Shown here: in pieces, positions 1,845 to 54,649 of the stretch
How positions within the stretch are numbered: position 1 is the stretch's first letter
Layout: every line of letters starts with the position of its first letter
From: an uncultured Candidatus Saccharibacteria bacterium
GTDB lineage: Bacteria > Patescibacteriota > Minisyncoccia > Phycocordibacterales > UBA2100
Assembly: GCA_964633425.1 (NCBI GenBank)
Contig: CAZWFX010000005.1
Location: 1,750-65,749, forward strand
Direction: 5' to 3'
DNA length: 64,000 bases
The notes under the pieces: model-generated
The model's database searches: none
Told to the model about the DNA's origin: nothing
What the model saw: the letters and a program-made list of their open reading frames with translations, nothing else
Program-made: the position numbers and the translations under genes

Positions 1845-1846
1845 AC

Positions 1847-3190: not shown

Positions 3191-3222
3191 AACAAGGATT
3201 AGAGCTGCTTTTTATGCACAAC

Positions 3223-5034: not shown

Positions 5035-5439
5035 TTAGCGCTTGGCGCTTTCGATGGACTGCACGACGCGCGAGGAGTCTTTCATGTTCTCCCAGAACGA
5101 GATGCTTTCTTTGCGAATATAAATGGTGTCCTCCGGACCATGCAGTTCACCGCCCAGTTTTACGAGGTTGAGATTGGACTGTTCCAGCTCGCTTGCGGAT
5201 TTAAGGTAATACACGTTGCTCAAGGTGACGTATCCGTTGCCGACATCGGACAACTTCCCGAAATACACCTGCCCTCCCGTAAGAAATAACGCCTGCCATT
5301 TCGATGCGGGCACAGGAGGGAATGAATCAGTTGCAGGCGTGCCGACTCCCATGAACGTAGACGAGAGCCACACTGCCGTAACCGCGATGAGCGCGTACAG
5401 AATCCCTTTTACCAGCGTCTTCATGATTGTGTGGGCCAT
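5035..5439 (-). CDS. Small N-terminally anchored protein, unknown function
   Basis: 134-aa ORF with TM GILYALIAVTAVWLSSTF followed by a soluble domain (QALFLTGGQVYFGKLSDVGNGYVTLSNVYYLK). Tightly packed in the operon. Confidence 0.65.
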   Translation of the reverse strand: MAHTIMKTLVKGILYALIAVTAVWLSSTFMGVGTPATDSFPPVPASKWQALFLTGGQVYFGKLSDVGNGYVTLSNVYYLKSASELEQSNLNLVKLGGELHGPEDTIYIRKESISFWENMKDSSRVVQSIESAKR

Positions 5440-5445
5440 AGATGT

Positions 5446-6363
5446 TTAATTGCTTCTATTAATAGAGATCTCCGTAAGTCCCGATGCCGGGGTCCACGAA
5501 CCGCTCTCGCCCTGCTCGCCGATCATCAGGTAGTACGTGCCGTTCGGAAGCAGAGCCGGCAGTCTATCTATAGAGTACGAATACGACCCGTTTTCGCAGG
5601 AATATGCGCGATTGACGATCGCTGAGCGCGGATCATTTTCGTAGTCTGTCTGATTCTTAAACAGCAGTACGACGAAGTACGTGCTCGCACACGAACCCGA
5701 GACTGTCATGATTCCCGTTTCAGGATCAACCGCTGTCGCGACCGGCACTGTGACCGGCACTATACCGATTGCCCGCGCTTTCTTTGTCGGGATTGTTTTA
5801 CCAGAAATAGCGAGGACATACTCGGGGTCGAGTGTGTCGTTGGCGTCTTTGAGCGGTACGAATTCCTCGCCGACCGTTTCTACAACCGTGGTAAGCGTCT
5901 CCGCAACAATCGTAAGTTCTTCGGGTGGGGGCATCGGAATCTCCTCCGGTGTTTCTACCGGGGTTTCCTCCGGCACGACATTTTCGGTCGTTTCCACGAG
6001 TTCAATGACTTCGATTGTGGGTTCGGTCGTCGTAGCCTCCTCCACGACTAGAATCTCGCTCTCGGTACTCGTACCCATCTCCGGGTTTTCCGTTCCCTCG
6101 AGCACATCGCCTGTTACTGATTCTTGCGCCGGAGCTGTTTGCTGAACCGACTCCTGCTCCGACGAGACTTCGGGCACGATCGGCGCTTCGGTCGACGCCT
6201 CGTCAGGGATCGCAGGCACTTCCGCCGTCGCAGTCGTCGCTTCAACCGGGACGACCGGTTCCACCACCTCGGGTGTTGTTTGTGCAAACGCGACCATTGG
6301 CGAGAGCAGCGAAAGTGAGAGCGCGAATGCAATTCCTTTGGTAACGAATGATTTTATAGTCAT
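5446..6363 (-). CDS. Secreted acidic Glu/Thr/Pro/Val-rich protein with a small globular C-terminal domain
   Basis: 305-aa ORF with signal peptide ending SPMVAFAQT, a long E/T/P/V low-complexity stretch and a Cys-containing C-terminal domain (VSGSCASTYFVVLLFKNQTDYENDPRSAIVNRAYSCENGSYSY). Confidence 0.7.
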   Translation of the reverse strand: MTIKSFVTKGIAFALSLSLLSPMVAFAQTTPEVVEPVVPVEATTATAEVPAIPDEASTEAPIVPEVSSEQESVQQTAPAQESVTGDVLEGTENPEMGTSTESEILVVEEATTTEPTIEVIELVETTENVVPEETPVETPEEIPMPPPEELTIVAETLTTVVETVGEEFVPLKDANDTLDPEYVLAISGKTIPTKKARAIGIVPVTVPVATAVDPETGIMTVSGSCASTYFVVLLFKNQTDYENDPRSAIVNRAYSCENGSYSYSIDRLPALLPNGTYYLMIGEQGESGSWTPASGLTEISINRSN

Positions 6364-6385
6364 ATGGTTTTCAAAATATTATATG

Positions 6386-9300
6386 TTATCGATCGGTCTC
6401 TATATAAATTCGATTGATGCCAATTCGTGCAGCGTTTGCTGCGGTGTTTGCAGCATTACTCATACATGCGTGTGCTGCCATCATCGTCGTATTTACAGGC
6501 AAGTCAGTCGCTATTGATCCATCTGCAATTTTGGTGCCGGTATTGACGTCGTCCATCTGCCAATACACAACAGTGTCATTTGGTTTTGCAAACAGATAGA
6601 ACGCATACCCATTGTTTGTCGCGAGCGCGGGCTGTCCTGCAATCGTCACCACCGTTGAAGAGCCGGTGTTGTCATTGGTGATCAAAGAGATAGACGTACT
6701 CGCGGCATTGATTGCAAATCCGATGGTATTGAGATGATTTGTCAGCTGCTGGGTACATACAGCGGTAGCGGTTGCGGCAGAGAGCCCTACAAACAGTCGA
6801 TCGCCGGCTGTCCACGTCTCCAAGCCCACTCGGGCCGCAAAGAAGAATCCTCCTTGCCCGGTCGTGCCGCCTCTGAAGAACATCGCTTCCGAACGAGTCC
6901 CCACCTGCTGGTTTAGCGTCGTCACGACAGAGGGAAACTGAGACCGACGCTGCGTCGTGTAAAAATTCGTTGTTGTCGGCAAAACAATGACAGGTGTACC
7001 GGAGTTTCCGCCGACTGTACCAGTCCACACACCGGCAGCTACTTGCGGCGTAAAGTACACAAGATTGTTCTGCCAAATTGCTGCTTGGAACGGAGTATCG
7101 ACTCCCGATGGTCCAACCCACTTCGGCACGGTACGCCCGCCGATTTCCTTCGCATAAATATTGAGTTCGCCTGAAGGTGGTGCAACAGGATCGGTAGTCG
7201 TTGAAAGCGAGAGAATACCCATACCGTTTACTGCAAACATGGTGCGGCCCGTGCTCGATGCGATAGTGAGAAGATCAGTGGTCTGCGTTGTGGATGTGCC
7301 GGTAAGCACGAGACCTGCCGTCGGAATCGACCACGTGAATCCGGCGTTCGCTGTAAACGAACCGTCGATGTTTCGGTATTGCACATTACCTGTGGAGCTT
7401 GCCGCCTGACCGCCGCACGTTACCCAGCCGCCGTTGTAGCAGCGGAACTCGCCGATATTCGAGTTGAAATACATCGATCCGTCGATACCCGTCGGGTCAC
7501 CCGCCGTGTTCTTCGTGTCGAGCACTAGGAGCGACGGGTTCGATCCGCCGGTGCCGAGCGTGACCCGGTTCGTCGACGGTGTGATCGCGAGCATCTGAGC
7601 GGTCGTGCTACCGAATGTGAGTCCCGAATTACCCTGCAGTGAAAGTACGTTGGACGACGTTGCAGCGATCGTGCGTGCGTAGAACTGTGTTGCCTCGAGC
7701 AAGCTCGAGGTCGCATTTCCGAACTGCTGCAAGCCTGTCCAAAGATTCGGATTGGAAAGGTTCAGCGAGATACCGACGTTGCCGGCGTTCGGGTTCACGG
7801 TCAGGGTCGTGTTGGTAGCGCTCACCGAGTTGACTGCACCGCTGATGCACACACCGTTCATAGCGAAGCATCCGCCCGTAAGGTTGATACCCTGTGAACC
7901 CGTGGACGTGGCCGAGAAGTTGAGTCGTGTTGCACTCACCCCTCCCGAGAAGGTCGATGTCGAGTTCGTGCCCGTAACATTGATGACACCGGCGATGGTC
8001 GATGTCCCCGTTGATCCGCCCTGCAATATCGTGCCGTTCGCTGCGCCGATAGAAAGCTGTTGCAATGCCGAGATCGCGGTCGTTGATGCGTATGGTAGCT
8101 GAGAAGCCGTATTGCTTGTCGCGTTAAAGCTCGACGCAGTGGGGGTTGATGATGCGACGACCGTCCCCTGCCCGTTAGTCGCAAGCAGTCCGTTACGAAT
8201 ATTCGAGATCCACAGGTCGGTCGTGGATGCGATGTTGATGCCCGTAATGCTGTTTGCAGCAGCGGCAACGGATCCCGTGAGTGAGAAGCCCGCGAGTGAA
8301 CCGAAGCGCGCAGATGTCGAGAAGAGGTTCGTCGAGGATGCGACCCCGGTAAAGAGCGACGTGGTGGTAGCACCGGTCGCCGTGATGTTCGCGAATGCGT
8401 TCACACCGATGAACGTATTGTTCTTGTAGGTCGTCGGCACCGTTGTTGATGACTGCATGTAGTAATCGGTCGATGACGTCGAGAAGAAATAGCCCTTATC
8501 AAACAGCGCGAGTGTGCTGGTCGAGAGTCGGCTGTTAAACGAATTCCAATCGGTGGACGAAAGGTAGCCGTTTTGTGCGGCGCCGGACTGTGTGAGCGTG
8601 AGGATGCCGCCGTTGTACGAGAGCGGTCCGGAGAATGTGGTCGCCTGCACTGCGCCGTTCACACCGGATCCGAGTAGACCATTCGAGATACCGACCACCA
8701 GGTTCGTGGTCGATGCGATGCCGGTCGAGATAACAGTGGTGGTTGCGCCGGTGGCAGTGATGTTTTGGAACGAATTCGTACCTGTGTAGGTGTTGTTCTT
8801 GTATGTGGTAGGAACAGTCGTCGACGACTGCATGTAGTAGTTCTGCGACGTGGTCGAGAACGACGCCCCCTGATTTTGTGACGTAAAGTACGCAGCCGAC
8901 GTTGTAGAGAACGAGAGTCCGAGGGTCGAGAAGTACGATGCCGAGGTGGTCGAGAAGAAATTATTCTGCGATTTCCAGTAGTCTGTCGATGTCGTCGAGA
9001 ACGCGAGGCCCGATGCCGCAAATACCGATGCGGATGTAGTCGAGAAGAAGAAGCCTTTGTCGATGAGAGCAAGCGTCGAGGTCGACAAACGGCTATTAAA
9101 CGAATTCCAATCCGTCGATGAAAGGTAGCCGTTTTGTGCGGCGCCCGACTGTGTGAGCGTAAGGATGCCGCCGTTGTACGAGAGCGGTCCGGAGAATGTG
9201 GTCGCCTGCACGACTCCATTTGCACCCGTACCGAGCAACGCATTGGACAGGCCCGAGACGACAAGATTCGTCGTTGAGGCGATGCCGGTCGAGATAGCAG

Positions 9301-12300
9301 TTGTGGTTGCGCCGGTTGCAGTAATGTTTTGGAACGAATTCGTACCTGTAAACGTGTTGCTCTTGTATGCAGTCACGACCGTCGTCGACGACTGCTGATA
9401 ATAATTCTCCGAAGTGGTCGAGAACGACGCCCCCTGGTTCTGTCCGAGGAAGTACTGCGCCGAGGTGGTCGAAAACGCAAGTCCAAGCGCCGAGAAGTGC
9501 GAGGCACTCGTGGTCGAGAAGAAGTTGTTCACGCTTCGCCAATAGTCGGTGGAGGTGGTCGAGAACGAAAGACCGCTCGCCGAAAAGACCGATGCCGACG
9601 TGGTCGAGAAGAACTGTCCCCTATCTATAGTATTGAGCGACGACGTGGAGAGTCGGCTATTGAACGAACTGAAATCCGACGACGAGAGGTAGCCGTTTTG
9701 AGATGCGCTTGCCTGCTGGATCGAGAGCGTGCCGGCGGAGAACGAAAGCGGTCCTGAGATTGTCGCGGCCGAAACGACGCCACCCGACCCTGTGTAGAGC
9801 ATGGAATTCTGAAGGGTTGAGATAACAAGGTTCGAGGTTGACGCACTATTCGTAGAGAGCGCGGTCGTAGTTGCACCGCTCGCAGTGATAGCGCCGAACG
9901 CATTGGTGCCCGTGAAGGTATTGTTGGTGAACGTTTTCGGAACGGATGTCGATGCTGCAAGGTACTGATCCACGAGTCCGTTGCTGAAGTACTTGTTGGT
10001 CGTACCCTGTGCGAGCGCATCGGTTGTGGTGCCTGCGATCACACCGGCAACGCGTGTCGGCGTGTAGTAGAGATTGCTGCCTTCGGCAAGATCAGTGGTC
10101 GACTTCGTAGCGAGCCACGCATCTGACGATGTTGTCGCCCATCGGTTCTGTGTTCCCTCCCAGTAGTTCACCGATGTGGTCGAGAAGAAGTAGCCCTTGT
10201 CGTAGGTCGACAAATTGAACGCCGCAGAGGTTGTCGAGAACGCCGCACCCTGATTGAGCGCGAGGAACGCGGAGGCCGAGGTGGTGGAGAAGAAGTATCC
10301 CTTGTCATAGGTCGAGAGGTTGTATGCCGTCGATGTGGTCGAGTGGAAATTGTTCTGCGTTTTCCAGTAGTCTGTTGAGGTGGTCGAGAACGCGCCGCCA
10401 AGATTCTGTCCGAGGAAGTACTGCGCCGAGGTGGTCGAAAACGCAAGTCCAAGCGACGAGAAGTGTGACGCACTCGTTGTCGAGAAGAAGTTGTTCACGC
10501 TTCGCCAATAGTCTGTGGAGGTGGTCGAGAACGAAAGACCGCTCGCCGAAAAGACCGATGCCGAGGTGGTCGAGAAGAAATTATTCTGCGTCTTCCAGTA
10601 GTCGGTCGAGGTGGTGGAGAACGTATTGCCCTGATTCTGCGAAACAAGTGCCGATGCCGCCACGAGATCGTAGCCGCCTGATGCATTGCCCACGAGCACC
10701 TGACCGTTCTGCGGAGCAGTCGAGGTTCCTGTGCCGCCGTTTGATATGCCCAGCACGCCGGTCACATCGCCGGCGAGGTTTACGAGCGTCGAGGTAACGA
10801 CACCGGCAACCGACTTGAGTACACCGCTTGCTTTGCCGAACGTGAATCCGTTGGATACGACGAGGTTCGACGTCGACGCGCTTGTACCGATCGATACCGA
10901 GTATGTGCTCGACGCGAGCGATACGGTATTGGTGCTGGTCGAGAGATCCCAGTAACCGGATGCACCGGATGCCCCGCCGCCGTAGCTCTCCAGCGCCACA
11001 GCCGCATCGACGAATTTCGGCAATACCAATACCGCGATTGTTCCCTGGCCGCCGCCGCTATAGCTCTCGAGTGCCTGACCGAGTGCGTATCCGGATTTCG
11101 ACAGCTTGATACCGACGCCCGGTACATCAGAAGCGGCGATAAGATCGCCCGCATTGATCGTGCCGTTCGCGGTCGAGACCGTGGTGCGGATCACGCCGGC
11201 AAAACCGACAATGTACGCATTCGCTTCGCCCTCAAGATTTGCGTTACCGACGAACGCCGCATTGTCCGACACGACGCCGATCAACGACTCGCCCGCCGTC
11301 GCCTTTCGGTACTCACCGTTCGAGTTGAGCGAGACGATGTCTCCCACTGCCGCAGATTCGCTGAGCTGCATGTATTCCGCAAAGTCGGCCGCGCCGGAGG
11401 TCTGTGTGATACCGGTTCCCGCGGTCGACAGACGGAGGCTGCCGACGCTGCGTCCGCCCGTGTCTGACCCTGAAGTCACGCCCGTGAAATATTCCTCGAA
11501 TCGCGGACACGTTGTTGCGCTCGTACACGCCGTTGCGTACGGCGTTCGAAGGTTGAGGCGTAACACATTGTTACCGGACGAAAGCGTATTGTTGTCGTTC
11601 GAAATTGCAACGATCGCTGTGCCTGTGGCACCGGTCGCACCGGTGGTCTGGCCCATGAACGAATACTTGTAGTTCGTGGTCGTCGTACCAAACGCCACCG
11701 GTCCCGAGATGGACGACGTGGCGGTGGTCGATGTTGCGCTAAAGCTGCCGAACAAACTGCTCACCGCCGATAACACGTTTGCAAAGAGCGAGGTCGAGGT
11801 GCCCTGCACGAACGTGATGTTCGAGAAACTGTTCGTTCCGCTGAACGTGTTGTTCGTATATGTCTTGGGGATTGTTGTGGATGCATCGACAAAATAATTT
11901 GCCGAAGTGGTCGAGAACGCAGCACCCTGATTCAACCCGAGGAAATATGCGGTAGACGTTGTCGAGAACGCAAGACCGAGCGACGAGAAGTGTGAGGCGC
12001 TCGTTGTCGAGAAGAAGTTGTTAACGCTTCGCCAATAGTCGGTCGAGGTGGTCGAGAACGAAAGTCCACGAGCCGAGAACACCGACGCCGAGGTGGTAGA
12101 GAAGTAGAAGCCCTTATCGACACCATTCAAGTACGTTTGGACCCGACCGTCCGAGTAGTACTTATTGTTCGTTCCCTCAGCAAGCGCATCGGTGGTGGTG
12201 CCTGCGATAACCCCCGCTACGCGCGTCGGCGTGTAGTAGAGGTTGCTGCCTTCGGCAAGATCAGTGGTCGACTTCGTGGCAAGCCACGCGTCTGAGCTTG

Positions 12301-15300
12301 TGGTTGCCCATCGGTTCTGTGTTCCCTCCCAGTAGTTCACCGATGTGGTCGAGAAGAAGTAGCCCTTGTCGTAGGTCGACAGATTAAACGCAAACGATGT
12401 GGTTGAGTGGAAATTGTTCTGCGTCTTCCAGAAGTCTGCAGAGGTTGTTGAGAACGAAGGTATTGTCTGAGTCGAAAGCCAGTAGTTCGATGACGTCGTG
12501 GAGAACGCGAGCCCGGCTGACGCAAAATTTGAAGCAGACGTGGTCGAGAAGAAGTAGCCTTTTGAGACCGTGTTCAGGAACGACTGAACTCGGTTATCGG
12601 TGTAGTACTGATTAGTCGAACCTTCAGCGATCGCGTCAGACGTTGTTGCCGCCAAAACGCCTGCGACGCGATTAGAGGTGAAGTAGAGATTATTCGTTCC
12701 CTCTGCTATCGCATCGGTCGTCGTTGCGGCAAGCACGGTTGCGACGCGTGCCGGCGTGAAATACATATTGTTTACTCCCTCGTCTAGGGCATCAGTGGTG
12801 GTTGCGTACCACGACGCGAGCGTGAAGTAGTTTGCAAGGTTTGCGAATGTCGGAAGCCCGATCGATGATGTGGCAGCAACGCTCCAGTGCGAACCGTTCC
12901 ATGAAAGGATGTCGCCATACGATGAGCCCCCGACCGACGGGATAGTGGATGAGCTATTGATGTACGAGGCTACGCGCGAATCCTGGTAGTACTTGTTGTT
13001 CGATCCTTCCGCAAGCGCATCGGTCGTCGTGCCCGCGATCACACCGGCAACTCGTGTCGGCGTGTAGTACAGGTTTGAACCCTCCGCGAGGTCGCTCGTG
13101 GACTTGGTCGCAAGCCACGCGTCGGAGCTTGTGGTTGCCCAGCGGTTCTGCGTTCCCTCCCAGTAATTCACCGATGTGGTTGAGAAGAAGTAGCCCTTGT
13201 CGTAGGTCGAAAGATTGAACGCAAACGATGTCGTTGAGTGGAAGTTATTCTGCGCCTTCCAGTAGTCAGCGGAGGTGGTCGAGAACGACGAGTCATTCAG
13301 CGAGTCGAAATACAACGCAGACGTGGTCGAGAAGAAGAACCCCTTGTCGACGCCGTTCAAATACGTCTGTACCAAACCGTTGCTGTAGTACTTGTTCACG
13401 CTTCCTTCGGCAAGCGCATCTGTTGTAGTACCTGCAATGACGCCTGCGACACGATTCGGCGTGAAGTAGAGATTAGTGCTTCCCTCTGCGATCGCATCGG
13501 TGGTGGTTGCGGCGAGTGCGGCAGCAACTCGATTCACCGTAAAGTACTTATTGTTCGATCCCTCGGTGAGCGCATCGGTTGTCGTTGCATACCACTGAGC
13601 GAGACCCATGTAGGCACCCAGGTCAGAGAATGCGACCAGCCCGAGCGACGATGTAGAGATCTGCGTCCACGTATTCGCCGGACCTCCTATTAATAGAGCG
13701 TTTTGCGTTACCGTGCTCAGTCCGGTTCCCCCATTGCCAGCGGTCAGCGCATTATTGAGCGTCAACGAATTAACAGTTGCACTGCCCACGTTCGCAGTAC
13801 CGATGGTCGCATTATTTGTGAACGAATTCGTCGAGGATGCAGTGCTCGTGTACAAGGTCGTCGTGGTTGCATTCGTTGCGGTGATGACGTTTCCGGTGAA
13901 TGCGCCCGCGATCAACGAGCCGATGTTCGCGATGTTCGAGTACAGATTGCTGGACGATGCGGTACCGGCGAACGACGTCGTCGACGTCGCGTTGGCGGCA
14001 GTCACGTTCTGGAAATCATTCGTTCCGGTGAAGGTGTTGTTTGAATACGTTTTCGGAACGGTCGACGAAGCCTGCATATAGTAATTCGCAGACGACGTCG
14101 AGAAGCTCTGCGGATTCTGCGATGCGTAATACGCTGCCGACGTGGTTGAGAAGAAGAACCCCTTGTCGACGCCGTTCAAATACGTCTGTACCAAACCGTT
14201 GCTGTAGTACTTGTTCACGCTTCCTTCGGCAAGCGCATCGGTTGTGGTGCCGGCAATGATCTCGGCAACACGGGTCGGCGTGAAGTACAGATTGATACCC
14301 TCGGCCACATCACTGGTCGACTTGGTCGCGAGCCACGCGTCGGAGCTTGTTGTCGCCCAGCGACTCTGCGTTCCCTCCCAATAAGTAACCGATGTGGTCG
14401 AGAAGAAGTACCCCTTGTCGTACGTTCCAAGATTAAACGCAAACGATGTGGTGGAGTGGAAATTCTGCTGCGACTTCCAGTAGTCGGTCGACGTGGTAGA
14501 GAATGCGAGACCGGCAGATGCAAAGTTTGAAGCGGATGTGGTCGAGAAGAAGTAGCCTTTGGAAATTGTATTGAGGAACGTTTGTACGCGAGAGTCATTG
14601 TAGTACTTGTTCGTGCTTCCCTCTGCGATCGCATCGGTTGTGGTTGCGGCAAGTACCGTCGCGACACGGTTCGTCGAGAAGTAGAGATTATTCGTGCCTT
14701 CCGCGAGCGCGTCGGTCGTTGTCGCTGCGAGCGATTCTGCAAACCGCGCCGGCGTGAAATACATATTGTTTACTCCCTCGTCTAGGGCATCAGTTGTGGT
14801 TGCGTACCACGACGCGAGCGTGAAGTAACTTGCAAGGCTCGCGAATGTCGGAAGTCCGATTGATGATGTAGCTGCAACACTCCAGCGCGAACCGTTCCAC
14901 GACAAGATATCGCCGTATGCGCCTCCTCCGACCGACGGGATTGTGGACGAGCCGTTGATGTACGACGCTACGCGCGAATCCTGGTAGTACTTGTTGGTGC
15001 CGCCTTCTGCGAGCGCATCGGTTGTGGTGCCTGCGATCACACTCGCCACACGGTTACTGGTGAAGTACTTATTGTTCGATCCTTCCGCAAGCGCATCGGT
15101 GGTGGTGCCTGCGATCACACCGGCAACACGGGTCGGCGTGTAGTAGAGGTTGCTGCCTTCGGCAAGATCAGTGGTCGACTTTGTCGCAAGCCATGCGTCC
15201 GAGCTAGTGGTCGCCCAGCGGAACTGCGTCGAATCCCAGAACGCGACCGATGTAGTCGAGAAGAAGTAGCCCTTGTCGTAGGTCGACAGATTGAACGCGG

Positions 15301-16921
15301 TCGATGTCGTCGAGTATGCGAGACCGAGAGACGAGAAGTACGAAGCCGATGTGGTAGAAAATGATGCTCCGGGATTTACAGAATTAAAATACGCGGCAGA
15401 CGTCGTAGAGAACGCAAGACCGACGGACGCGAACTGTGAAGCGCTGGTGGTAGAAAAGTAGAACCCCTTGTCGACGCCGTTCAAGTATGTCTGCACGCGG
15501 TTGTCCGTGTAGTACTTGTTTGTCGCTCCCTCTGAGAGCGCGTCGGTTGTCGTGCCAGCGATCACACTCGCAACGCGTGTATCGGTGTAATACCTGTTCG
15601 TTACACCTTCCGTAAGTGCGTCGGTCGTGGTTGCGTACCACGCAGAGAGTCCGAGATACGACGAGAGGGTCGCAAATGTCGGCAGTCCGAGTGACGAGGT
15701 CGATACCTGCGACCAGGTATTTCCGGCCGCACCGATCAGGATGCCGTTTTGTGATACCGAACCGATACCCGTTCCGCCGCGACCGGCACCGAGTGTTCCC
15801 GACCAGGTCGGGGCGAACGTGTGCGTGTCGCCGGAGGACGTGATGGTGATGCCGATGTTTGTATCCGAGCTCGTTGCAAGCGTCTGAGACGATCCTGTTT
15901 GATATGAGGAGAATTCCGCCCCGAGCGCCGTCAAACCGCCGCCTGCCCCGGCATCTGCACCACATCCGAACTGCCGCGTCGTAGCATTCCAGATGAGTTT
16001 GTCCGAACTCGCCGAGCACGAAACAAGTCCGCCACCCGAAACAGTGTTCAGAATATTAAAATTCGAGGTCGTCGCATTGGTGAGCGTTACGTCGCCCGTG
16101 AAATTATTCACGCCACTGAACGAATTATTTGTGAATGACTTCGCAACCGTCGTTGATCCCGCAAGGAATGCATTGACCGCACTGTTCGAGTAGTACAGAT
16201 TCGTAATACCCTGCGGCAGATTATCTGTCGTCTTTGTTGCAAACCATGCATCCGACGATGTTGTCGCCCAAGCACCTACCGTCGAATTCCAGTAGTTCAC
16301 CGACGTCGTCGAAAAGAAATACCCCTTGTCGTAGGTTGAGAGGTCGTACGCGGCGCTCGTCGTTGAGTATGAGTTTGCGCGGTAGTACGCCCCTGTCTGA
16401 CCGCCGAGCGTTGCGGAATTGATTGCGTATCCGGATGCGGTCACACGCTGACGGGGTGAAAGATTTTCAAAACTCTCGGCACCGTCGCCGGCAGCGCACG
16501 TCGCGCCGACCTTGCTTGCCACTTCGACGTTCAGGTACACCGCATCGTTCGACTCAAAATCAAAGTTCAACGTGTCTCCTCCTGCGTTCGTATCTCCCAC
16601 ACCCGCATTGAACACACCACTCTTCACATTAACCGTCATGGTCGACGGCGCCGAGGACGGCCACAGCTTTGTGCCGGAACCGACGGTTGCATTGTCGTAG
16701 AGCGAGAATTTAACGCAGTAATCCGTGCCACTCGATCCGCCAAGGAGCGAACCGCCCGAGTTCATGAGACGGCCCTGGTAGTTCATGATTCGCGGCACCC
16801 CGGTTGCTGCGTGCGCCGTGTCTGCGAAAGCAATCGTGCACATAATCACACATGCAAGAACCGCGATCAGTCGCGGGATGCTTCGATTCATGCTTACCCA
16901 TGATCGTGTATGTGTGTTCAT
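6386..16921 (-). CDS. Giant secreted fibre-like repeat protein (phage-tail-fibre-like mosaic, about 3,511 aa)
   Basis: Uninterrupted 3,539-aa ORF. The start was moved to M29 (16921) because it lies 5 nt past the upstream gene stop; M39 (16891) is also possible. Signal peptide IPRLIAVLACVIMCTIAFADTAHA. N-terminal MNYQGRLMNSGGSLL...KFSLYDNATVGSGTKLW...LSPRQRVTASGYA. At least 17 hand-counted T(T/S)DA(L/I)xEGxxNxY(Y/F) units, dozens of (Y/F)FSTTS units, and GGTG motifs (LGAGRGGTGIGS, LTAGNGGTGLST, GISNGGTGTSTA). Confidence 0.9.
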   Translation of the reverse strand: MNTHTRSWVSMNRSIPRLIAVLACVIMCTIAFADTAHAATGVPRIMNYQGRLMNSGGSLLGGSSGTDYCVKFSLYDNATVGSGTKLWPSSAPSTMTVNVKSGVFNAGVGDTNAGGDTLNFDFESNDAVYLNVEVASKVGATCAAGDGAESFENLSPRQRVTASGYAINSATLGGQTGAYYRANSYSTTSAAYDLSTYDKGYFFSTTSVNYWNSTVGAWATTSSDAWFATKTTDNLPQGITNLYYSNSAVNAFLAGSTTVAKSFTNNSFSGVNNFTGDVTLTNATTSNFNILNTVSGGGLVSCSASSDKLIWNATTRQFGCGADAGAGGGLTALGAEFSSYQTGSSQTLATSSDTNIGITITSSGDTHTFAPTWSGTLGAGRGGTGIGSVSQNGILIGAAGNTWSQVSTSSLGLPTFATLSSYLGLSAWYATTTDALTEGVTNRYYTDTRVASVIAGTTTDALSEGATNKYYTDNRVQTYLNGVDKGFYFSTTSASQFASVGLAFSTTSAAYFNSVNPGASFSTTSASYFSSLGLAYSTTSTAFNLSTYDKGYFFSTTSVAFWDSTQFRWATTSSDAWLATKSTTDLAEGSNLYYTPTRVAGVIAGTTTDALAEGSNNKYFTSNRVASVIAGTTTDALAEGGTNKYYQDSRVASYINGSSTIPSVGGGAYGDILSWNGSRWSVAATSSIGLPTFASLASYFTLASWYATTTDALDEGVNNMYFTPARFAESLAATTTDALAEGTNNLYFSTNRVATVLAATTTDAIAEGSTNKYYNDSRVQTFLNTISKGYFFSTTSASNFASAGLAFSTTSTDYWKSQQNFHSTTSFAFNLGTYDKGYFFSTTSVTYWEGTQSRWATTSSDAWLATKSTSDVAEGINLYFTPTRVAEIIAGTTTDALAEGSVNKYYSNGLVQTYLNGVDKGFFFSTTSAAYYASQNPQSFSTSSANYYMQASSTVPKTYSNNTFTGTNDFQNVTAANATSTTSFAGTASSSNLYSNIANIGSLIAGAFTGNVITATNATTTTLYTSTASSTNSFTNNATIGTANVGSATVNSLTLNNALTAGNGGTGLSTVTQNALLIGGPANTWTQISTSSLGLVAFSDLGAYMGLAQWYATTTDALTEGSNNKYFTVNRVAAALAATTTDAIAEGSTNLYFTPNRVAGVIAGTTTDALAEGSVNKYYSNGLVQTYLNGVDKGFFFSTTSALYFDSLNDSSFSTTSADYWKAQNNFHSTTSFAFNLSTYDKGYFFSTTSVNYWEGTQNRWATTSSDAWLATKSTSDLAEGSNLYYTPTRVAGVIAGTTTDALAEGSNNKYYQDSRVASYINSSSTIPSVGGSSYGDILSWNGSHWSVAATSSIGLPTFANLANYFTLASWYATTTDALDEGVNNMYFTPARVATVLAATTTDAIAEGTNNLYFTSNRVAGVLAATTSDAIAEGSTNQYYTDNRVQSFLNTVSKGYFFSTTSASNFASAGLAFSTTSSNYWLSTQTIPSFSTTSADFWKTQNNFHSTTSFAFNLSTYDKGYFFSTTSVNYWEGTQNRWATTSSDAWLATKSTTDLAEGSNLYYTPTRVAGVIAGTTTDALAEGTNNKYYSDGRVQTYLNGVDKGFYFSTTSASVFSARGLSFSTTSTDYWRSVNNFFSTTSASHFSSLGLAFSTTSTAYFLGLNQGAAFSTTSANYFVDASTTIPKTYTNNTFSGTNSFSNITFVQGTSTSLFANVLSAVSSLFGSFSATSTTATSSISGPVAFGTTTTNYKYSFMGQTTGATGATGTAIVAISNDNNTLSSGNNVLRLNLRTPYATACTSATTCPRFEEYFTGVTSGSDTGGRSVGSLRLSTAGTGITQTSGAADFAEYMQLSESAAVGDIVSLNSNGEYRKATAGESLIGVVSDNAAFVGNANLEGEANAYIVGFAGVIRTTVSTANGTINAGDLIAASDVPGVGIKLSKSGYALGQALESYSGGGQGTIAVLVLPKFVDAAVALESYGGGASGASGYWDLSTSTNTVSLASSTYSVSIGTSASTSNLVVSNGFTFGKASGVLKSVAGVVTSTLVNLAGDVTGVLGISNGGTGTSTAPQNGQVLVGNASGGYDLVAASALVSQNQGNTFSTTSTDYWKTQNNFFSTTSASVFSASGLSFSTTSTDYWRSVNNFFSTTSASHFSSLGLAFSTTSAQYFLGQNLGGAFSTTSTDYWKTQNNFHSTTSTAYNLSTYDKGYFFSTTSASAFLALNQGAAFSTTSAAFNLSTYDKGYFFSTTSVNYWEGTQNRWATTSSDAWLATKSTTDLAEGSNLYYTPTRVAGVIAGTTTDALAQGTTNKYFSNGLVDQYLAASTSVPKTFTNNTFTGTNAFGAITASGATTTALSTNSASTSNLVISTLQNSMLYTGSGGVVSAATISGPLSFSAGTLSIQQASASQNGYLSSSDFSSFNSRLSTSSLNTIDRGQFFSTTSASVFSASGLSFSTTSTDYWRSVNNFFSTTSASHFSALGLAFSTTSAQYFLGQNQGASFSTTSENYYQQSSTTVVTAYKSNTFTGTNSFQNITATGATTTAISTGIASTTNLVVSGLSNALLGTGANGVVQATTFSGPLSYNGGILTLTQSGAAQNGYLSSTDWNSFNSRLSTSTLALIDKGFFFSTTSASVFAASGLAFSTTSTDYWKSQNNFFSTTSASYFSTLGLSFSTTSAAYFTSQNQGASFSTTSQNYYMQSSTTVPTTYKNNTYTGTNSFQNITATGATTTVISTGIASTTNLVVGISNGLLGSGVNGAVQATTFSGPLSYNGGILTLTQSGAAQNGYLSSTDWNSFNSRLSTSTLALFDKGYFFSTSSTDYYMQSSTTVPTTYKNNTFIGVNAFANITATGATTTSLFTGVASSTNLFSTSARFGSLAGFSLTGSVAAAANSITGINIASTTDLWISNIRNGLLATNGQGTVVASSTPTASSFNATSNTASQLPYASTTAISALQQLSIGAANGTILQGGSTGTSTIAGVINVTGTNSTSTFSGGVSATRLNFSATSTGSQGINLTGGCFAMNGVCISGAVNSVSATNTTLTVNPNAGNVGISLNLSNPNLWTGLQQFGNATSSLLEATQFYARTIAATSSNVLSLQGNSGLTFGSTTAQMLAITPSTNRVTLGTGGSNPSLLVLDTKNTAGDPTGIDGSMYFNSNIGEFRCYNGGWVTCGGQAASSTGNVQYRNIDGSFTANAGFTWSIPTAGLVLTGTSTTQTTDLLTIASSTGRTMFAVNGMGILSLSTTTDPVAPPSGELNIYAKEIGGRTVPKWVGPSGVDTPFQAAIWQNNLVYFTPQVAAGVWTGTVGGNSGTPVIVLPTTTNFYTTQRRSQFPSVVTTLNQQVGTRSEAMFFRGGTTGQGGFFFAARVGLETWTAGDRLFVGLSAATATAVCTQQLTNHLNTIGFAINAASTSISLITNDNTGSSTVVTIAGQPALATNNGYAFYLFAKPNDTVVYWQMDDVNTGTKIADGSIATDLPVNTTMMAAHACMSNAANTAANAARIGINRIYIETDR
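8450..16330 (-). repeat. Intragenic in-frame tandem and interspersed repeats of the giant fibre gene
   Basis: Near-identical DNA blocks such as ccgatgtggtcgagaagaagtagcccttgtcgtaggtcga recur near 10170, 12340, 13180, 14400 and 15250. At protein level the STYDKGYFFSTTSVNYWEGTQNRWATTSSDAWLATKSTTDLAEGSNLYYTPTRVAGVIAGTTTDALAEG module is repeated at least 6 times. Confidence 0.85.
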
Positions 16922-16925
16922 GTGA

Positions 16926-17312
16926 TCAGGTTTGTTGCTCGAGGCGCTGAATGGCGCGCTGATTGAGTCGCTGGTCGAGCGAAGTTGAAAATATGTAGAA
17001 AACAAGCATCAGGAATGCGACGCTCACGATCATGAGAGCGATCGAAAGCCGCTTTACGAGGCGCGGCGATTCGATCTCTCGCTGAATGGTATTCATAAAA
17101 CCCGTCGATACCGCACCTTTTGTGAGCGGCGCGCCACGCTTTTTGTCCATGTAGTCACGAAGCGCGTCCTCGGTAGTCATCCATGCGACATTTGCAAATA
17201 CCTGCTTACCCGGCAGTTTTCCGCTCCGAATCAGCTGACCGACATAGTCAGGAGTGTAGCCCGACATGGCCGCCGCTTCTCGAAGTGATATGTATTCGCT
17301 TTTTTTCATCAT
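16926..17312 (-). CDS. Membrane-anchored helix-turn-helix protein (excisionase/MerR-type HTH plus C-terminal TM)
   Basis: 131-aa ORF trimmed to the first ATG (MMKKSEY). HTH-like ISLREAAAMSGYTPDYVGQLIRSGKLPGKQV and TM LSIALMIVSVAFLMLVFYIF. Sits immediately upstream of the giant fibre gene. Confidence 0.75.
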   Translation of the reverse strand: MMKKSEYISLREAAAMSGYTPDYVGQLIRSGKLPGKQVFANVAWMTTEDALRDYMDKKRGAPLTKGAVSTGFMNTIQREIESPRLVKRLSIALMIVSVAFLMLVFYIFSTSLDQRLNQRAIQRLEQQT

Positions 17313-17322
17313 GATAGGCAAA

Positions 17323-51151: not shown

Positions 51152-51192
51152 GCGGGTGCGTTTCGCGGTCACGAAACGTGTGTGAAAATTGA

Positions 51193-51669
51193 TCAGGCCT
51201 TGTTGACCCGGATACGAATGCCCGAACTCTCTCCCTTTTTCAACGGAAGCAGGAGCATCAGCACGCCCTCTTTCATCACAGCCTCGGTACGGTCGGAATC
51301 GACCTCGGAAGGCAAGATGATCTGCCGATAGAAATTTCCCCACGAACATTCTTCGAGGATCTTTTCGCGGCCTTCGGCAGTCGGCAACTGAAAATGTTCA
51401 CCTTCCGGGCGCTTTCGCTCGCCCTTTATCGTGACGATGTCACCATCGCCCTCGATAGTGACGCCAAAATCATCGACGTTCGACCCGGCAAGCTGTGCGT
51501 AGATGATGATGGCTCCTGGAATTTTGTAGATGTCGACCGGAAGCTGTTCATCCGTCGACGGATTACCGGGTGATTTTTCTGCTTGCATCACAACCTTGTC
51601 CTGTTTTTTGTCCTCGGGTGCACCCGGGATCACGTCTTTTGCTTTCAAGCGCTGTAAAAAGGACGACAT
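51193..51669 (-). CDS. Small heat-shock protein, Hsp20/alpha-crystallin family
   Basis: 158-aa ORF with the alpha-crystallin pattern PVDIYKIPGAIIIYAQLAGSNVDDFGVTIEGDGDIVTIKGERK...FYRQIILPSEVDSDRTEAVMKEGVLMLLLPLK. Confidence 0.9.
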   Translation of the reverse strand: MSSFLQRLKAKDVIPGAPEDKKQDKVVMQAEKSPGNPSTDEQLPVDIYKIPGAIIIYAQLAGSNVDDFGVTIEGDGDIVTIKGERKRPEGEHFQLPTAEGREKILEECSWGNFYRQIILPSEVDSDRTEAVMKEGVLMLLLPLKKGESSGIRIRVNKA

Positions 51670-54640: not shown

Positions 54641-54649
54641 AGTGAGCTT

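What the first reader, a model, noticed from the sequence alone, without database searches (positions are those of the whole stretch)
6386..16921. 3.5k-aa secreted protein built from phage-tail-fibre-like repeats
After a signal peptide and an N-terminal domain (MNYQGRLMNSGGSLL...LSPRQRVTASGYA), the protein is a long array of motifs that I associate with phage tail fibres. They include T(T/S)DA(L/I)xEGxxNxY(Y/F)(T/S) (at least 17 by hand count), TDLAEGSNLYYTPTRV, and GGTG-containing segments resembling the GGTGATT...NLGL motif of tail-fibre N-termini. These are interleaved with (Y/F)FSTTS..(Y/F)W units. A cellular gene encoding a tail-fibre-like super-fibre, next to a membrane-bound HTH regulator, looks like an adhesin derived from or convergent with phage receptor-binding fibres.
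Basis: partly seen in the sequence, partly recalled or inferred. Interest (0 to 1): 0.65.

Follow-up and report, generated by a model that had tools for sequence, protein, structure and literature searches.

The report
Giant phage-fibre-like adhesin of a CPR bacterium
A tiny, probably host-dependent bacterium (Patescibacteria/CPR) encodes a secreted 3,511-residue surface fibre assembled from parts also found in phage fibre and virion proteins, and its sugar-binding-type tip has been swapped between near-identical relatives, which makes it a strong candidate for how these bacteria recognise their hosts.

Summary
One intact ORF on the minus strand (6386-16921, 3,511 aa) has a Sec signal peptide, 17 TTDALxEGxxNxY(Y/F) units plus 6 shorter variants, and 48 FSTTS units.

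- The 26-residue TTDAL unit matches structural and fibre proteins of T4-like cyanophages. The FSTTS arrays and GGTG blocks match nothing in phages.
- An internal phi29-gp12-type autochaperone domain (Peptidase_G2, aa 1787-1984) keeps the invariant Asp/Glu at the position of the phi29 cleavage site.
- The C-terminal tip (aa 3240-3511) has a ConA-like lectin fold and is homologous to phage virion proteins.

The gene is cellular. It lies in a gene cluster conserved across Patescibacteria MAGs, with no phage genes nearby. A small HTH-plus-membrane-helix gene sits upstream, and genes resembling the recently described CPR Pam pilus (pilin, membrane-anchored chaperones) sit downstream.

A syntenic relative has the same fibre with domains 98-99% identical but a tip only 36% identical, so the tip has been exchanged.

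Best reading: a mosaic, probably trimeric host-attachment fibre, closest in plan to the Bdellovibrio MAT fibres. This is a new variant of a known kind. Adhesion, trimer formation and self-cleavage are inferred, not shown.

The parts
6386..16921 (-). Whole coding sequence of the giant fibre protein: 3,511 aa from ATG 16921, or 3,501 aa if the second Met at 16891 is the true start. The stop codon is at 6386-6388.
   Evidence: The orthologue P0408 is annotated from the second Met.
16808..16921 (-). Sec-type signal peptide (aa 1-38), with predicted cleavage at AHA|A.
   Evidence: Read directly from the sequence. The A-x-A site is conserved in homologues and the Cys is not.
16397..16807 (-). Conserved N-terminal domain (aa 39-175, starting ATGVPRIMNYQGRL) that defines the family. 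It is probably the cell-proximal end.
   Evidence: 252 homologues, with source names only from Patescibacteria. 77 GTDB loci. 99.3% identical in the relative, with pN/pS 0.014. A faint hit to NCBIfam Bdello_MAT_N, E 0.03.
11882..16396 (-). Repeat shaft I (aa 176-1680). It holds five super-modules built from 26-residue TTDALxEGxxNxYY units, 15-18-residue FSTTS units, WATTSSDAW junctions, two GGTG blocks and two GDILSWNG blocks.
   Evidence: The TTDAL units hit phrog_697, phrog_2952 and phrog_32934 and cyanophage fibre proteins.
11564..11881 (-). Ser/Thr-rich stretch (aa 1681-1786) leading into the autochaperone domain.
   Evidence: No family hit.
10970..11563 (-). Internal autochaperone / autoproteolysis domain of the phi29 gp12 type (Peptidase_G2, aa 1787-1984).
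   Evidence: Pfam PF11962, 33.9 bits against a cut-off of 25. Sequence match to PDB 3gqh_A, E 5.7e-4. Profile match to 3gqh 1.7e-10, 6qz9 5.6e-9 and 28nb 2.8e-8. AF2 model with pLDDT 83; top Foldseek hits are 3suc and 3gqh_A. pN/pS 0.019.
11375..11386 (-). D1846-F-A-E1849. The predicted scissile bond is A1845|D1846. The Asp and Glu are invariant in the family.
   Evidence: Residue 1 of the released phi29 gp12 C-terminal fragment (3gqh_A, DFAEYFES) aligns to D1846. The Asp and Glu are invariant in a 28-sequence alignment. The motif recurs in most of the 150 best relatives.
10637..10969 (-). Conserved block containing GGTG (aa 1985-2095), directly after the autochaperone domain.
   Evidence: Recurs next to the G2 domain in relatives. 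98.2% identical in the orthologue. No PHROG hit.
8432..10636 (-). Repeat shaft II (aa 2096-2830). It holds FSTTS arrays, one WATTSSDAW/TTDAL module, and three 188-residue modules that each end in QNGYLSSxDWNSFNSRL.
   Evidence: No PHROG hit.
7388..8431 (-). Non-repetitive Ser/Thr/Gly-rich pre-tip shaft with two Cys pairs (aa 2831-3178).
   Evidence: 97.7% identical in the orthologue.
7205..7387 (-). Linker (aa 3179-3239). Identity to the orthologue drops here, so the boundary of the exchanged tip segment lies in or just after this stretch.
   Evidence: 62% identity in this stretch. The two sequences diverge after GPSGVDTPFQA.
6389..7204 (-). C-terminal tip domain with a ConA-like lectin fold (aa 3240-3511). 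It is the exchangeable, presumed receptor-binding module.
   Evidence: AF2 model with pLDDT 86. Foldseek against PDB: SO2946 and legume lectins. Foldseek against BFVD: phage 11b gp33 and phage or giant-virus collagen, 'tail repeat' and Mtd_N proteins. tblastn: phage 11b gp33, 43% identity, E 5e-34. phrog_13925, 9e-27. 57 IMG/VR loci. Only 36% identical in the orthologue.
16926..17321 (-). Small upstream gene encoding an excisionase/MerR-type HTH followed by one transmembrane helix. It is co-oriented with the fibre gene and ends 4 nt before the fibre ATG.
   Evidence: Pfam HTH_17, E 4.7e-4, below cut-off. phrog_66 excisionase/regulator, 5.5e-5. Sequence. The same position is kept in 12 related loci.
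3223..4569 (-). Downstream gene d448: a secreted protein whose C-terminal 147 residues weakly match the pilin domain of the CPR Pam pilus.
   Evidence: NCBIfam NF058581 CPR_Pam_pilin_C, E 5e-6, 26.7 bits (cut-off 55), covering model positions 3-148 of 148. Syntenic in L012, L030 and L035.
528..3190 (-). Two paralogous downstream genes (d447 at 1847-3190, d438 at 528-1844). Each has a signal peptide, an ectodomain of about 260 aa and a membrane helix, which matches the description of the membrane-anchored PamC/PamD pilus chaperones.
   Evidence: Hydrophobic segments. Weak hits to WxLIP_PGBD, E 6.9e-6, and to a fimbrial chaperone family, E 0.009. Relatives lie near fibre genes in 9 loci in all (7 for each query). 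PamC/D are described in bioRxiv 10.64898/2026.03.03.709456.
5035..6363 (-). Two conserved small downstream genes (d305 at 5446-6363, d134 at 5035-5439) with a signal peptide or membrane segment. Function unknown.
   Evidence: Syntenic in L010 and L012.

Best explanation
The gene encodes a Sec-exported, very long, mosaic surface fibre of a Patescibacteria (CPR) bacterium. It is built on the plan of phage receptor-binding fibres and of the Bdellovibrio 'mosaic adhesive trimer' (MAT) fibres.

Shown by the analyses here:
- The protein has a signal peptide.
- It has a conserved ~135-residue N-terminal domain under strong purifying selection.
- It has a shaft of short repeats, of which the 26-residue TTDAL unit is shared with fibre and structural proteins of T4-like cyanophages.
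- It has an internal phi29-gp12-type autochaperone domain with the family-invariant Asp/Glu at the position of the phi29 cleavage site.
- It has a C-terminal ConA-like lectin-fold domain homologous to phage virion proteins. This domain has been replaced by a different allele in an otherwise 98-99% identical orthologue.

Inferred:
- The chain forms a trimer. The G2 domain would nucleate and register trimer formation outside the cell, and it may then cut the chain between A1845 and D1846.
- The N-terminal domain holds the fibre at the cell surface, possibly through the Pam-like pilus and chaperone proteins encoded just downstream.
- The exchangeable lectin-like tip binds a surface glycan of the host or prey cell and so sets attachment specificity.
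For: Reality of the gene:
- The ORF is intact and its repeats have diverged.
- The orthologue in an independent 377-kb contig is also intact, with a different repeat number.
- pN/pS is 0.014-0.019 at pS 0.23-0.40.

Cellular, not viral:
- It has a Sec signal peptide.
- No neighbouring gene hits a phage structural family.
- Synteny is conserved across Patescibacteria MAGs.

Phage-type parts:
- TTDAL units.
- G2 autochaperone. 3,626 representative proteins carry the domain, often internally or twice.
- Tip domain. The tip sits at the C-terminus of the last tail gene of Rhodobacter phage RcKemmy. It also follows collagen repeats in P0118 and in giant-virus proteins, which implies it works in a trimer.

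The tip as specificity module:
- Identity to the orthologue is 99.3% (N-domain), 98.5% (G2), 98.2% (GGTG block) and 97.7% (pre-tip shaft), but only 35.8% in the tip.
- The two tip alleles resemble different phage proteins.
- The family as a whole is mosaic, with one constant N-domain and varied ends.

Precedent:
- MAT fibres have a signal peptide, a conserved ~130-aa N-domain, a trimeric shaft and swappable tips, and they act in prey recognition (PMC10769870).
- A 'tail fibre-like protein' consistently lies next to the pam pilus operon of CPR bacteria (bioRxiv 10.64898/2026.03.03.709456).
Against: - No experiment or expression data exist for this protein.
- Trimer formation was not modelled, because only monomer AF2 jobs were available.
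- The protein has no recognisable anchor: no LPXTG, no lipobox and no C-terminal membrane helix.
- The G2 domain is internal. Canonical cleavage would therefore cut the tip-bearing half away from the N-terminal half, and phi29 needs ATP to release the cleaved domain (my recollection of Xiang et al. 2009; the paper is not held in the library). Cleavage, or what follows it, must differ here.
- In two siphophages (11b and IMG/VR locus L092) the gene carrying the tip domain lies just upstream of the tape-measure gene, where the tail-tube gene normally sits. The domain is therefore not always a distal fibre tip.
- The FSTTS and GGTG parts, which make up most of the shaft, have no phage counterpart.
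- Homology of the N-domain to the MAT N-domain is only faint (E 0.03).
- The Pam link rests on sub-threshold hits.
Confidence: 0.6

Rival explanations
1. The fibre is a dedicated part of the Pam-like pilus encoded downstream. In this reading it is a giant tip or accessory adhesin that the membrane-anchored chaperones hand on to the pilus by donor-strand exchange, rather than an independently anchored fibre. This overlaps with the best explanation and differs only in how the fibre is mounted.
For: - The downstream gene d448 matches the Pam pilin C-domain model over its full length (E 5e-6), and d447/d438 have the PamC/D-like layout.
- The cluster is syntenic in several MAGs, and chaperone-like genes recur near fibre genes in 9 loci in all (7 for each query).
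- The Pam preprint reports a tail fibre-like protein co-localised with pam operons.
- The fibre has no anchor of its own.
Against: - All Pam-related hits are below the curated cut-offs.
- No truncated Ig-like acceptor domain or donor strand was identified in the fibre.
- The N-domain shows no similarity to d448 (hhalign probability 0.5%).
- A trimeric fibre does not fit easily onto a single-file donor-strand pilus.
- The stand-alone tip-domain proteins of Saccharibacteria are not next to such genes.
Confidence: 0.2
2. It is a phage or prophage tail-fibre gene, that is, a virion component carried in the bacterial contig.
For: Three modules have their nearest characterised relatives in phages. 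The upstream HTH protein weakly resembles excisionase and small-terminase families.
Against: - It has a Sec signal peptide.
- No capsid, portal, terminase, tape-measure or baseplate gene lies among the ten neighbours or among the other window ORFs scanned with Pfam.
- The same cluster is conserved in many Patescibacteria MAGs down to ~40% identity.
- The 57 viral contigs that carry the tip domain lack the N-domain, the G2 domain and the neighbouring genes.
Confidence: 0.03
3. It is a structural or matrix protein, such as an S-layer-associated sheath or biofilm fibre. In this reading the phage-like parts serve only as folding and assembly modules, and the protein does not recognise a specific receptor.
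For: - The shaft is very long and rich in Ser/Thr, and most of it has no phage counterpart.
- The neighbourhood is full of envelope proteins (cohesin/dockerin-like, FN3, Ca-adhesin repeats).
Against: Wholesale replacement of the tip beside 98-99% conserved domains, and mosaic ends across the family, are the signature of a specificity determinant rather than of a scaffold. The tip also has a lectin fold.
Confidence: 0.12
4. The giant ORF is an assembly artefact, or a chimera of two genes joined at the G2 domain.
For: Short-read assemblies often break or collapse at such repeats. Many family members in the databases are contig-end fragments.
Against: - The repeat copies are only 60-93% identical at the DNA level.
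- The G2 domain joined to the downstream block is contiguous and 98% identical in an independent assembly.
- The same junction is present in P0138, P0139, P0141 and P0144.
- The frame stays open for 10.5 kb.
Confidence: 0.03

Closest known systems
Bdellovibrio bacteriovorus MAT (mosaic adhesive trimer) fibres (Caulton et al. 2024, PMC10769870)
   Same: - Both are cellular, Sec-exported proteins that resemble phage fibres.
- Both have a conserved ~130-residue domain directly after the signal peptide.
- Both have a long shaft and interchangeable C-terminal tips, including lectin folds.
- Some members of both groups carry a phage-type autoproteolytic chaperone.
- Both belong to a bacterium that lives off other bacteria.
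   Different: - This protein is three to four times longer.
- Its shaft is made of short sequence repeats, not the described beta-helix with capping loops (untested here).
- Its chaperone is of the G2 (phi29 gp12) type and sits in the middle of the chain, not an S74 domain at the C-terminus.
- The host phylum is different (monoderm CPR).
- Similarity of the N-domain to the NCBIfam MAT N-domain model is only faint (E 0.03, 14 bits against a cut-off of 60).
Bacillus phage phi29 gp12 pre-neck appendage, C-terminal autochaperone (MEROPS/Pfam Peptidase_G2; PDB 3GQH, 3SUC)
   Same: - The domain matches in sequence, profile and predicted fold.
- D-F-A-E-Y aligns exactly with the first residues of the released phi29 fragment.
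- The Asp and Glu are invariant.
   Different: - In phi29 the domain is C-terminal and is discarded after trimer formation inside the cell. Here it is internal, with 1,527 residues following it, and it would act outside the cell.
- The P1 residue is Ala here and Ser in phi29.
- The predicted fold agrees only moderately (TM 0.48-0.57).
Fibre and structural proteins of T4-like cyanophages (Kyanoviridae; e.g. the Synechococcus phage S-M1 2,177-aa structural protein and the S-MbCM100 'fiber protein'; phrog_697)
   Same: They carry the same short unit, TTD(A/D)LxEGxxNLYYT(D/E)xR, in tandem copies.
   Different: The phage proteins have 5-7 such units near their C-terminal part, and an Mtd_N-type N-terminus (my recognition of the motif, not tested) instead of a signal peptide. 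The rest of the two proteins is unrelated.
Flavobacterium phage 11b gp33, Rhodobacter phage RcKemmy gp22 C-terminus, and the 'SO2946-like C-terminal domain' family (PDB 2A5Z)
   Same: The tip is homologous in sequence (43% identity to gp33) and in predicted fold (TM 0.84 to gp33's model). It has a ConA-like beta-sandwich, and it also ends collagen-bearing phage and giant-virus proteins.
   Different: The function of these phage proteins is unknown. In 11b and in IMG/VR locus L092 the gene sits just upstream of the tape-measure gene rather than at the end of the tail module. About 440-aa stand-alone versions without a signal peptide are common in Saccharibacteria genomes.
Pam pilus operon of CPR bacteria and its co-localised 'tail fibre-like protein' (Troman et al. 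2026, bioRxiv 10.64898/2026.03.03.709456)
   Same: Both are CPR-specific and share a genomic neighbourhood made up of a pilin-like gene, two membrane-anchored chaperone-like genes and a fibre-like gene.
   Different: The preprint does not describe the fibre-like protein, so identity with this family is unverified. The Pam-like hits here are below cut-off. No ATP-synthase genes were seen among the window ORFs that were scanned; many ORFs were not scanned.
MyRF / phage endosialidase ICA (Peptidase_S74) domains
   Same: MyRF is a precedent for a trimerisation-dependent self-cleaving chaperone domain placed in the middle of a protein, where it releases one half (PMC8326128, PMC3828593).
   Different: It belongs to a different domain family (S74, Ser-Lys dyad), acts in a eukaryotic membrane transcription factor, and is not a fibre adhesin.

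Membership tests
Peptidase_G2 / phi29 gp12-type intramolecular chaperone domain | Significant match to the family profile | tested here: met
   PF11962 scores 30 bits on the whole protein and 33.9 bits on the segment, against a cut-off of 25. phrog_4775 pre-neck appendage protein, 4.3e-5. Profile against PDB: 3gqh 1.7e-10.
Peptidase_G2 / phi29 gp12-type intramolecular chaperone domain | Conserved acidic residues at the cleavage site (D-x-x-E at the start of the released fragment) | tested here: met
   D1846 and E1849 align to residues 1 and 4 of 3gqh_A. Both are invariant in 28 diverse family members. Their catalytic role is my recollection of Xiang et al. 2009; the paper is not held in the library.
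Peptidase_G2 / phi29 gp12-type intramolecular chaperone domain | Fold of the autochaperone domain | tested here: met
   The AF2 model has pLDDT 83. The only Foldseek PDB hits with E<1e-3 are 3suc and 3gqh_A, at moderate TM 0.48-0.57.
Peptidase_G2 / phi29 gp12-type intramolecular chaperone domain | C-terminal position, released after trimer formation | tested here: not met
   The domain spans aa 1787-1984 of 3,511. An internal position is shared by the closest relatives.
Peptidase_G2 / phi29 gp12-type intramolecular chaperone domain | Autoproteolysis actually occurs | not testable with these tools
   This needs expression of aa ~1700-2100 and mass spectrometry.
Bdellovibrio-type MAT fibre family | Signal peptide followed directly by a conserved ~130-aa beta-rich N-terminal domain | tested here: met
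   The domain is 137 residues and begins at the predicted cleavage site. Beta-rich structure was not modelled.
Bdellovibrio-type MAT fibre family | N-terminal domain homologous to the MAT N-domain | tested here: inconclusive
   NCBIfam NF053851 Bdello_MAT_N is the only hit for the segment, but at E 0.03 and 14.1 bits against a cut-off of 60, covering profile positions 70-152 of 162.
Bdellovibrio-type MAT fibre family | Variable, exchangeable C-terminal tip on a constant N-terminal part | tested here: met
   The tip is 36% identical to the orthologue's, against 98-99% for the other domains. The ends are mosaic across 77 loci.
Bdellovibrio-type MAT fibre family | Trimeric beta-helical shaft with capping loops | not testable with these tools
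   No multimer prediction was available. A trimer is inferred from the G2 domain and from collagen-linked homologues of the tip.
Bdellovibrio-type MAT fibre family | S74 chaperone/protease at the C-terminus (S74 subfamily only) | tested here: not met
   There is no Peptidase_S74 hit in Pfam. A G2-type domain is present instead.
Phage tail fibre (virion component) | Encoded within a phage structural gene module, with no secretion signal | tested here: not met
   The protein has a signal peptide. The neighbours lack phage structural families. The cluster is conserved in cellular MAG contigs.
ConA-like lectin / SO2946-like C-terminal domain | Beta-sandwich fold match | tested here: met
   Foldseek against PDB: 2a5z at 9e-8 and many legume lectins, with TM normalised to the target of 0.46-0.59 among the top ten. 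BFVD includes entries named 'SO2946-like C-terminal domain'.
ConA-like lectin / SO2946-like C-terminal domain | Carbohydrate binding | not testable with these tools
   This needs a glycan array or cell-binding assay.
Trimeric autotransporter adhesin (YadA type) | C-terminal membrane-anchor beta-barrel and YadA head/stalk motifs | tested here: not met
   No such Pfam or NCBIfam hits. The C-terminus is the lectin-fold domain.
DGR (diversity-generating retroelement) target protein | A variable repeat matching the template repeat of the DGR in the window | tested here: not met
   A scan of the whole window with the template repeat, allowing A-to-N changes, finds only the one variable repeat at 55480-55613.
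Pam pilus operon (neighbouring genes, not the fibre) | Pilin with a Pam C-terminal domain, and chaperones with a C-terminal membrane helix | tested here: inconclusive
   d448 hits NF058581 at E 5e-6 and 26.7 bits, below the cut-off of 55, but covering the full length of the model. d447 and d438 have a signal peptide and a membrane helix, but only weak chaperone or WxLIP hits. Nothing matches in the PDB.

The most novel reading that the evidence does not exclude
The gene encodes a self-processing, two-segment fibre precursor. The internal G2 domain registers the first ~1,800-residue trimer and then cuts the chain. The result is either two fibres or a non-covalently jointed one.

The fibre's lectin-like tip is a cassette that CPR bacteria exchange with phages. 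Working together with the adjacent Pam-like pilus, it forms the host-recognition device of the episymbiont.

If this is right, tip alleles could be read like phage receptor-binding proteins to predict which hosts uncultured CPR bacteria attach to.
Probability: 0.2. Interest if true: 0.85.

Novelty: new variant of a known kind. Interest (0 to 1): 0.66.

Why it matters
How Patescibacteria/CPR cells find and hold their hosts is largely unknown, and the hosts themselves are unknown for nearly all lineages. Only type IV pili and, very recently, Pam pili have been implicated.

This family offers a concrete and widespread candidate:
- It was found in 77 loci among GTDB species-representative genomes, across several CPR classes.
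- Its architecture has a built-in specificity module, and that module is visibly exchanged between close relatives.
- The module is homologous to phage virion proteins.

Three experiments follow directly:
- Tip-binding assays.
- Comparison of tip alleles with the phages of candidate hosts.
- Tests of self-cleavage.

The family also extends the 'bacteria borrow phage fibres' theme from Bdellovibrio to a monoderm, ultrasmall lineage. It shows a phi29-type autochaperone used inside a secreted chain rather than at its end.

Tried and rejected
- A whole-protein homologue search timed out.
- The whole-protein PHROG scan gave essentially nothing, while segment scans gave clear hits. Long, compositionally biased queries hide domain matches.
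- The 391-aa query around the G2 domain returned only 15 hits, because low-complexity words filled the candidate list. The exhaustive HMMER search solved this.
- The phi29 gp12 structure paper is not held. The roles of the catalytic residues are therefore from memory.
- The MAT paper's supplement could not be searched for sequences.
- Literature searches for the TTDAL motif and for Peptidase_G2 found nothing useful.
- A link to the DGR in the window was considered and rejected: there is no second variable repeat.
- Kinship with the second giant ORF was rejected: there is no BLAST hit.
- Paralogues of the fibre domains elsewhere in the window: none.
- A prophage origin was rejected.
- Similarity between the N-domain and the pilin-like neighbour was rejected.
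- Solved Pam structures in the PDB copy: none matched.
- A link between the stand-alone tip proteins of Saccharibacteria and Pam-like genes was not seen.

Full report
**Observation.** The minus strand of the window carries one uninterrupted ORF.
- The annotated orthologue starts at the second Met, at 16891.
- The N-terminus is a Sec signal ending AHA|A. Homologues have A-x-A at the same place and do not conserve the Cys, so it is not a lipoprotein signal.
- I counted 17 TTDALxEGxxNxY[YF] units in runs with an exact 26-residue spacing.
- I also counted 6 shorter TDLAEGSNLYYTPTRV-type units, each after a WATTSSDAW motif; 48 FSTTS units 15-18 residues apart; 3 GGTG; and three 188-residue modules ending QNGYLSSxDWNSFNSRL.
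- Composition-preserving shuffles give 0, 0.7 and 0.47 for TTDAL, FSTTS and GGTG. The first two arrays are far beyond chance. The bare GGTG is not.
- The DNA copies of the repeats are only 60-93% identical.

**Whose gene it is.** The window has no tRNA or rRNA gene.
- Homologues of the N-terminal domain carry source names only from Patescibacteria: Paceibacterota, Vogelbacteria, Minisyncoccia and Parcubacteria.
- A scan of GTDB species genomes found 77 loci, in MAGs labelled Paceibacterota, Adlerbacteria, Uhrbacteria, Magasanikbacteria, Nomurabacteria, Doudnabacteria and 'Ca. Saccharibacteria'. Some are labelled 'Gammaproteobacteria', which looks implausible and was not verified.
- Locus L008, from a 377-kb contig, is syntenic with the window at about 92% nucleotide identity.
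- Its orthologue, P0408, is 3,697 aa and intact. It has 18 TTDAL, 54 FSTTS and 7 WATTSSDAW units, so the repeat number differs between the two genomes.
- Between the two genomes the N-domain and the G2/GGTG region show pN/pS of 0.014 and 0.019, at pS of 0.23-0.40.
- The gene is therefore real, cellular and under strong constraint.

**Anatomy.** Residues are numbered from the ATG at 16921.

| Residues | Part |
|---|---|
| 1-38 | Signal peptide |
| 39-175 | Conserved N-domain |
| 176-1680 | Repeat shaft I |
| 1681-1786 | Ser/Thr-rich stretch |
| 1787-1984 | Peptidase_G2-type autochaperone |
| 1985-2095 | Conserved GGTG block |
| 2096-2830 | Repeat shaft II |
| 2831-3178 | Non-repetitive pre-tip shaft |
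| 3179-3239 | Linker |
| 3240-3511 | Tip domain |

**Phage kinship, part by part.**

*(a) Repeats.*
- tblastn of aa 431-707 against 50,697 phage records hits 100 records. All are T4-like cyanophages, and the matches lie in proteins annotated as structural or fibre proteins.
- The S-M1 protein contains TTDALAEGSTNLYYTDERV and several TTDDLSEGATNLYYTDARA units.
- Segment-wise PHROG scans show that the TTDAL units alone carry the signal: phrog_697 structural protein, phrog_2952 minor tail protein, and phrog_32934.
- FSTTS arrays, the 188-residue module and the GGTG blocks hit nothing.

*(b) The internal domain.*
- Pfam PF11962 scores above its gathering cut-off.
- The PDB chain 3gqh_A is the released C-terminal fragment of phi29 gp12. 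It begins DFAEYFES, and this aligns to D1846-FAEYMQ.
- A 28-sequence profile raises the match to 1.7e-10. It also finds full-length gp12 and a tailspike 'chaperon domain D4'.
- D1846 and E1849 are invariant in that alignment.
- An AF2 model (pLDDT 83) finds 3suc and 3gqh_A as its only significant PDB matches.
- An exhaustive HMMER search finds 3,626 representative proteins with this domain. Many are large, many have two copies, and the closest relatives have it internally.

*(c) The tip.*
- An AF2 model (pLDDT 86) has a ConA-like beta-sandwich. Its best solved matches are SO2946 and legume lectins.
- Among predicted viral structures it matches phage 11b gp33 (TM 0.84). It also matches the C-terminal parts of proteins named 'phage tail repeat like', 'collagen triple helix repeat' and 'Mtd N-terminal domain-containing'.
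- By sequence it is 43% identical to gp33 (E 5e-34) and hits phrog_13925.
- It occurs in 57 IMG/VR contigs.
- It forms the C-terminus of gp22 of Rhodobacter phage RcKemmy, the last tail-module gene before the lysis genes.
- Caveat: in phage 11b and in the bona fide siphophage L092, the gene lies just upstream of the tape-measure gene, the usual slot of the tail-tube gene. The domain is therefore virion-associated but not always a distal tip.
- About 440-aa stand-alone versions without a signal peptide are frequent in Saccharibacteria and other Patescibacteria genomes.

**The most telling result.** I compared the window protein with P0408, domain by domain.

| Domain | Identity to P0408 |
|---|---|
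| N-domain | 99.3% |
| G2 | 98.5% |
| GGTG block | 98.2% |
| Pre-tip shaft | 97.7% |
| Linker | 62% |
| Tip | 35.8% |

- The two sequences part just after GPSGVDTPFQA.
- The window's tip is closest to phage 11b gp33. The relative's tip is closest to RcKemmy gp22 (38.5% identity, E 1e-17).
- Across the 77 loci the N-domain is joined to very different bodies and ends. One is an 1,146-aa protein with the same tip and no G2 domain. Others are 2,600-aa proteins with two G2 domains and an acidic tail.
- P0138 has the window's tip type on a different shaft.
- This is the mosaic, tip-swapping pattern of phage receptor-binding proteins and of the Bdellovibrio MAT fibres.

**Neighbourhood.**
- A 131-aa gene ends 4 nt before the fibre ATG. 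It encodes an excisionase/MerR-type HTH (sub-threshold in Pfam; phrog_66 5.5e-5) plus one hydrophobic helix. It keeps this position in 12 related loci, down to ~40% identity.
- Downstream genes of 305, 134, 448, 447 and 438 aa are syntenic in several MAGs.
- The 448-aa protein matches the NCBIfam model of the CPR Pam pilus pilin C-domain over its whole length, at E 5e-6 and below cut-off.
- The 447- and 438-aa paralogues each have a signal peptide, an ectodomain and a membrane helix. They have only weak hits to pilus-chaperone and WxLIP families.
[quoted passage not shown] The preprint also notes, without further analysis, that 'a tail fibre-like protein' consistently sits next to pam operons.
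- None of the ten neighbours hits a phage structural family.

**Mechanism proposed.**
- Shown: a secreted, modular protein with a constant N-domain, a G2 autochaperone with its acidic pair intact, and an exchangeable lectin-fold tip.
- Inferred: the chain trimerises. The G2 domain works in trimers in phi29, and homologues of the tip follow collagen repeats, which are obligate trimers.
- Inferred: after Sec export the G2 domain registers the upstream shaft.
- Inferred: the N-domain stays at the cell surface, perhaps through the Pam-like proteins.
- Inferred: the tip binds a surface glycan of the partner cell.
- Whether the chain is cut at A1845|D1846 is open. I put it at about even odds. A cut would separate the N-terminal half from the tip-bearing half unless the two stay associated. 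MyRF is a precedent for a mid-chain self-cleaving chaperone, though of the S74 type.

**Comparison with known systems.**
- The closest kind is the MAT family. It shares the signal peptide, the constant N-domain, the fibre, swappable tips and an optional phage-type chaperone.
- Membership is not established, because the MAT N-domain model hits only at E 0.03.
- The differences are: the length; the repeat-built shaft; a G2 rather than an S74 chaperone; its internal position; and the CPR host with a Pam-like neighbourhood.
- It is not a phage tail fibre proper, not a trimeric autotransporter, and not a DGR target.

**Verdict.**
- I rate it a new variant of a known kind, with moderately high interest.
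- It gives a concrete, testable candidate for host recognition by CPR bacteria.
- Function, trimer state, cleavage and anchoring all remain inferences.

Noticed in passing
window 53450-56066 (minus strand): A diversity-generating retroelement.
- Reverse transcriptase: 53450-54640 (Pfam RVT_1, 1.7e-25).
- Template repeat: 55013-55146.
- Variable repeat: 55480-55613, at the 3' end of a 195-aa ORF (55479-56066) that ends ...YYVWYAAHRFVFARRK.
- The two repeats differ almost only at template adenines: 97% of the non-adenine positions are the same.
- An Avd-like four-helix ORF appears to lie on the opposite strand (54479-55015).
- There is no second variable repeat in the window, so the element does not target the giant fibre.
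   Followed up: partly
window 30407-49516 (minus strand): A second giant ORF of 6,369 aa. It has an N-terminal membrane or signal segment and a Thr/Ser/Gly/Ala-rich composition. It has no BLAST similarity to the fibre and none of its motifs, so it is a different kind of giant surface protein.
   Followed up: partly
window 60780-60910 (minus strand): An Rfam LOOT RNA (RF03000) match at 59.2 bits against a gathering score of 46.4, covering the full model. It lies inside the 5' part of a mechanically called 726-aa ORF (58809-60989).
   Followed up: no
window 18333-19118 (+), 19119-21037 (-), 21040-22176 (-), 49667-51349 (-): A set of secreted or membrane-anchored proteins with cohesin- and dockerin-like domains, an OmpL47-type barrel, Ca-adhesin repeats and myxo-type Cys-rich repeats. 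The 261-, 322- and 317-aa genes are syntenic with the fibre cluster in other MAGs. Cohesin-dockerin pairs in a CPR genome suggest a scaffolded surface complex.
   Followed up: partly
L092:5476-6806 (IMG/VR contig IMGVR_UViG_3300037882_001092): In this siphophage the gene carrying the tip-type domain (60% identical to the window's tip) is split into two ORFs (5476-6273 and 6312-6806), although the tblastn match runs through 6001-6800. This could be a recoded stop codon, a frameshift or a sequencing error. The gene sits between a 'tail protein' gene and the tape-measure gene.
   Followed up: no
P0016-P0135; L003:9934-11256: About 440-aa stand-alone proteins are common in Saccharibacteria and other Patescibacteria chromosomes, on contigs up to 492 kb. 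They consist of a ~110-residue N-terminal domain plus the same lectin-fold domain, and they have no signal peptide. One is named 'PHG11b 33'. In L003 the gene precedes a 1,125-aa DUF4082 protein and is not in an obvious prophage.
   Followed up: partly
window 56267-58804 (minus strand): An 845-aa protein combining a ResIII helicase domain with a weak TnsA-like endonuclease N-terminal domain at its C-terminus. It lies next to the DGR and the LOOT RNA, in a region where G+C drops from about 55% to about 49%.
   Followed up: no
P0142, P0144, P0145; L030, L035, L053: Relatives of the fibre carry two G2-type domains: one internal, and one 290-420 residues before a Pro/Glu/Thr-rich C-terminal tail. 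More distant family members often have two such domains about 270-300 residues apart, with motifs GADFAEY and SYDFAEMFPS. What a tandem pair of autochaperones does is unexplained.
   Followed up: partly
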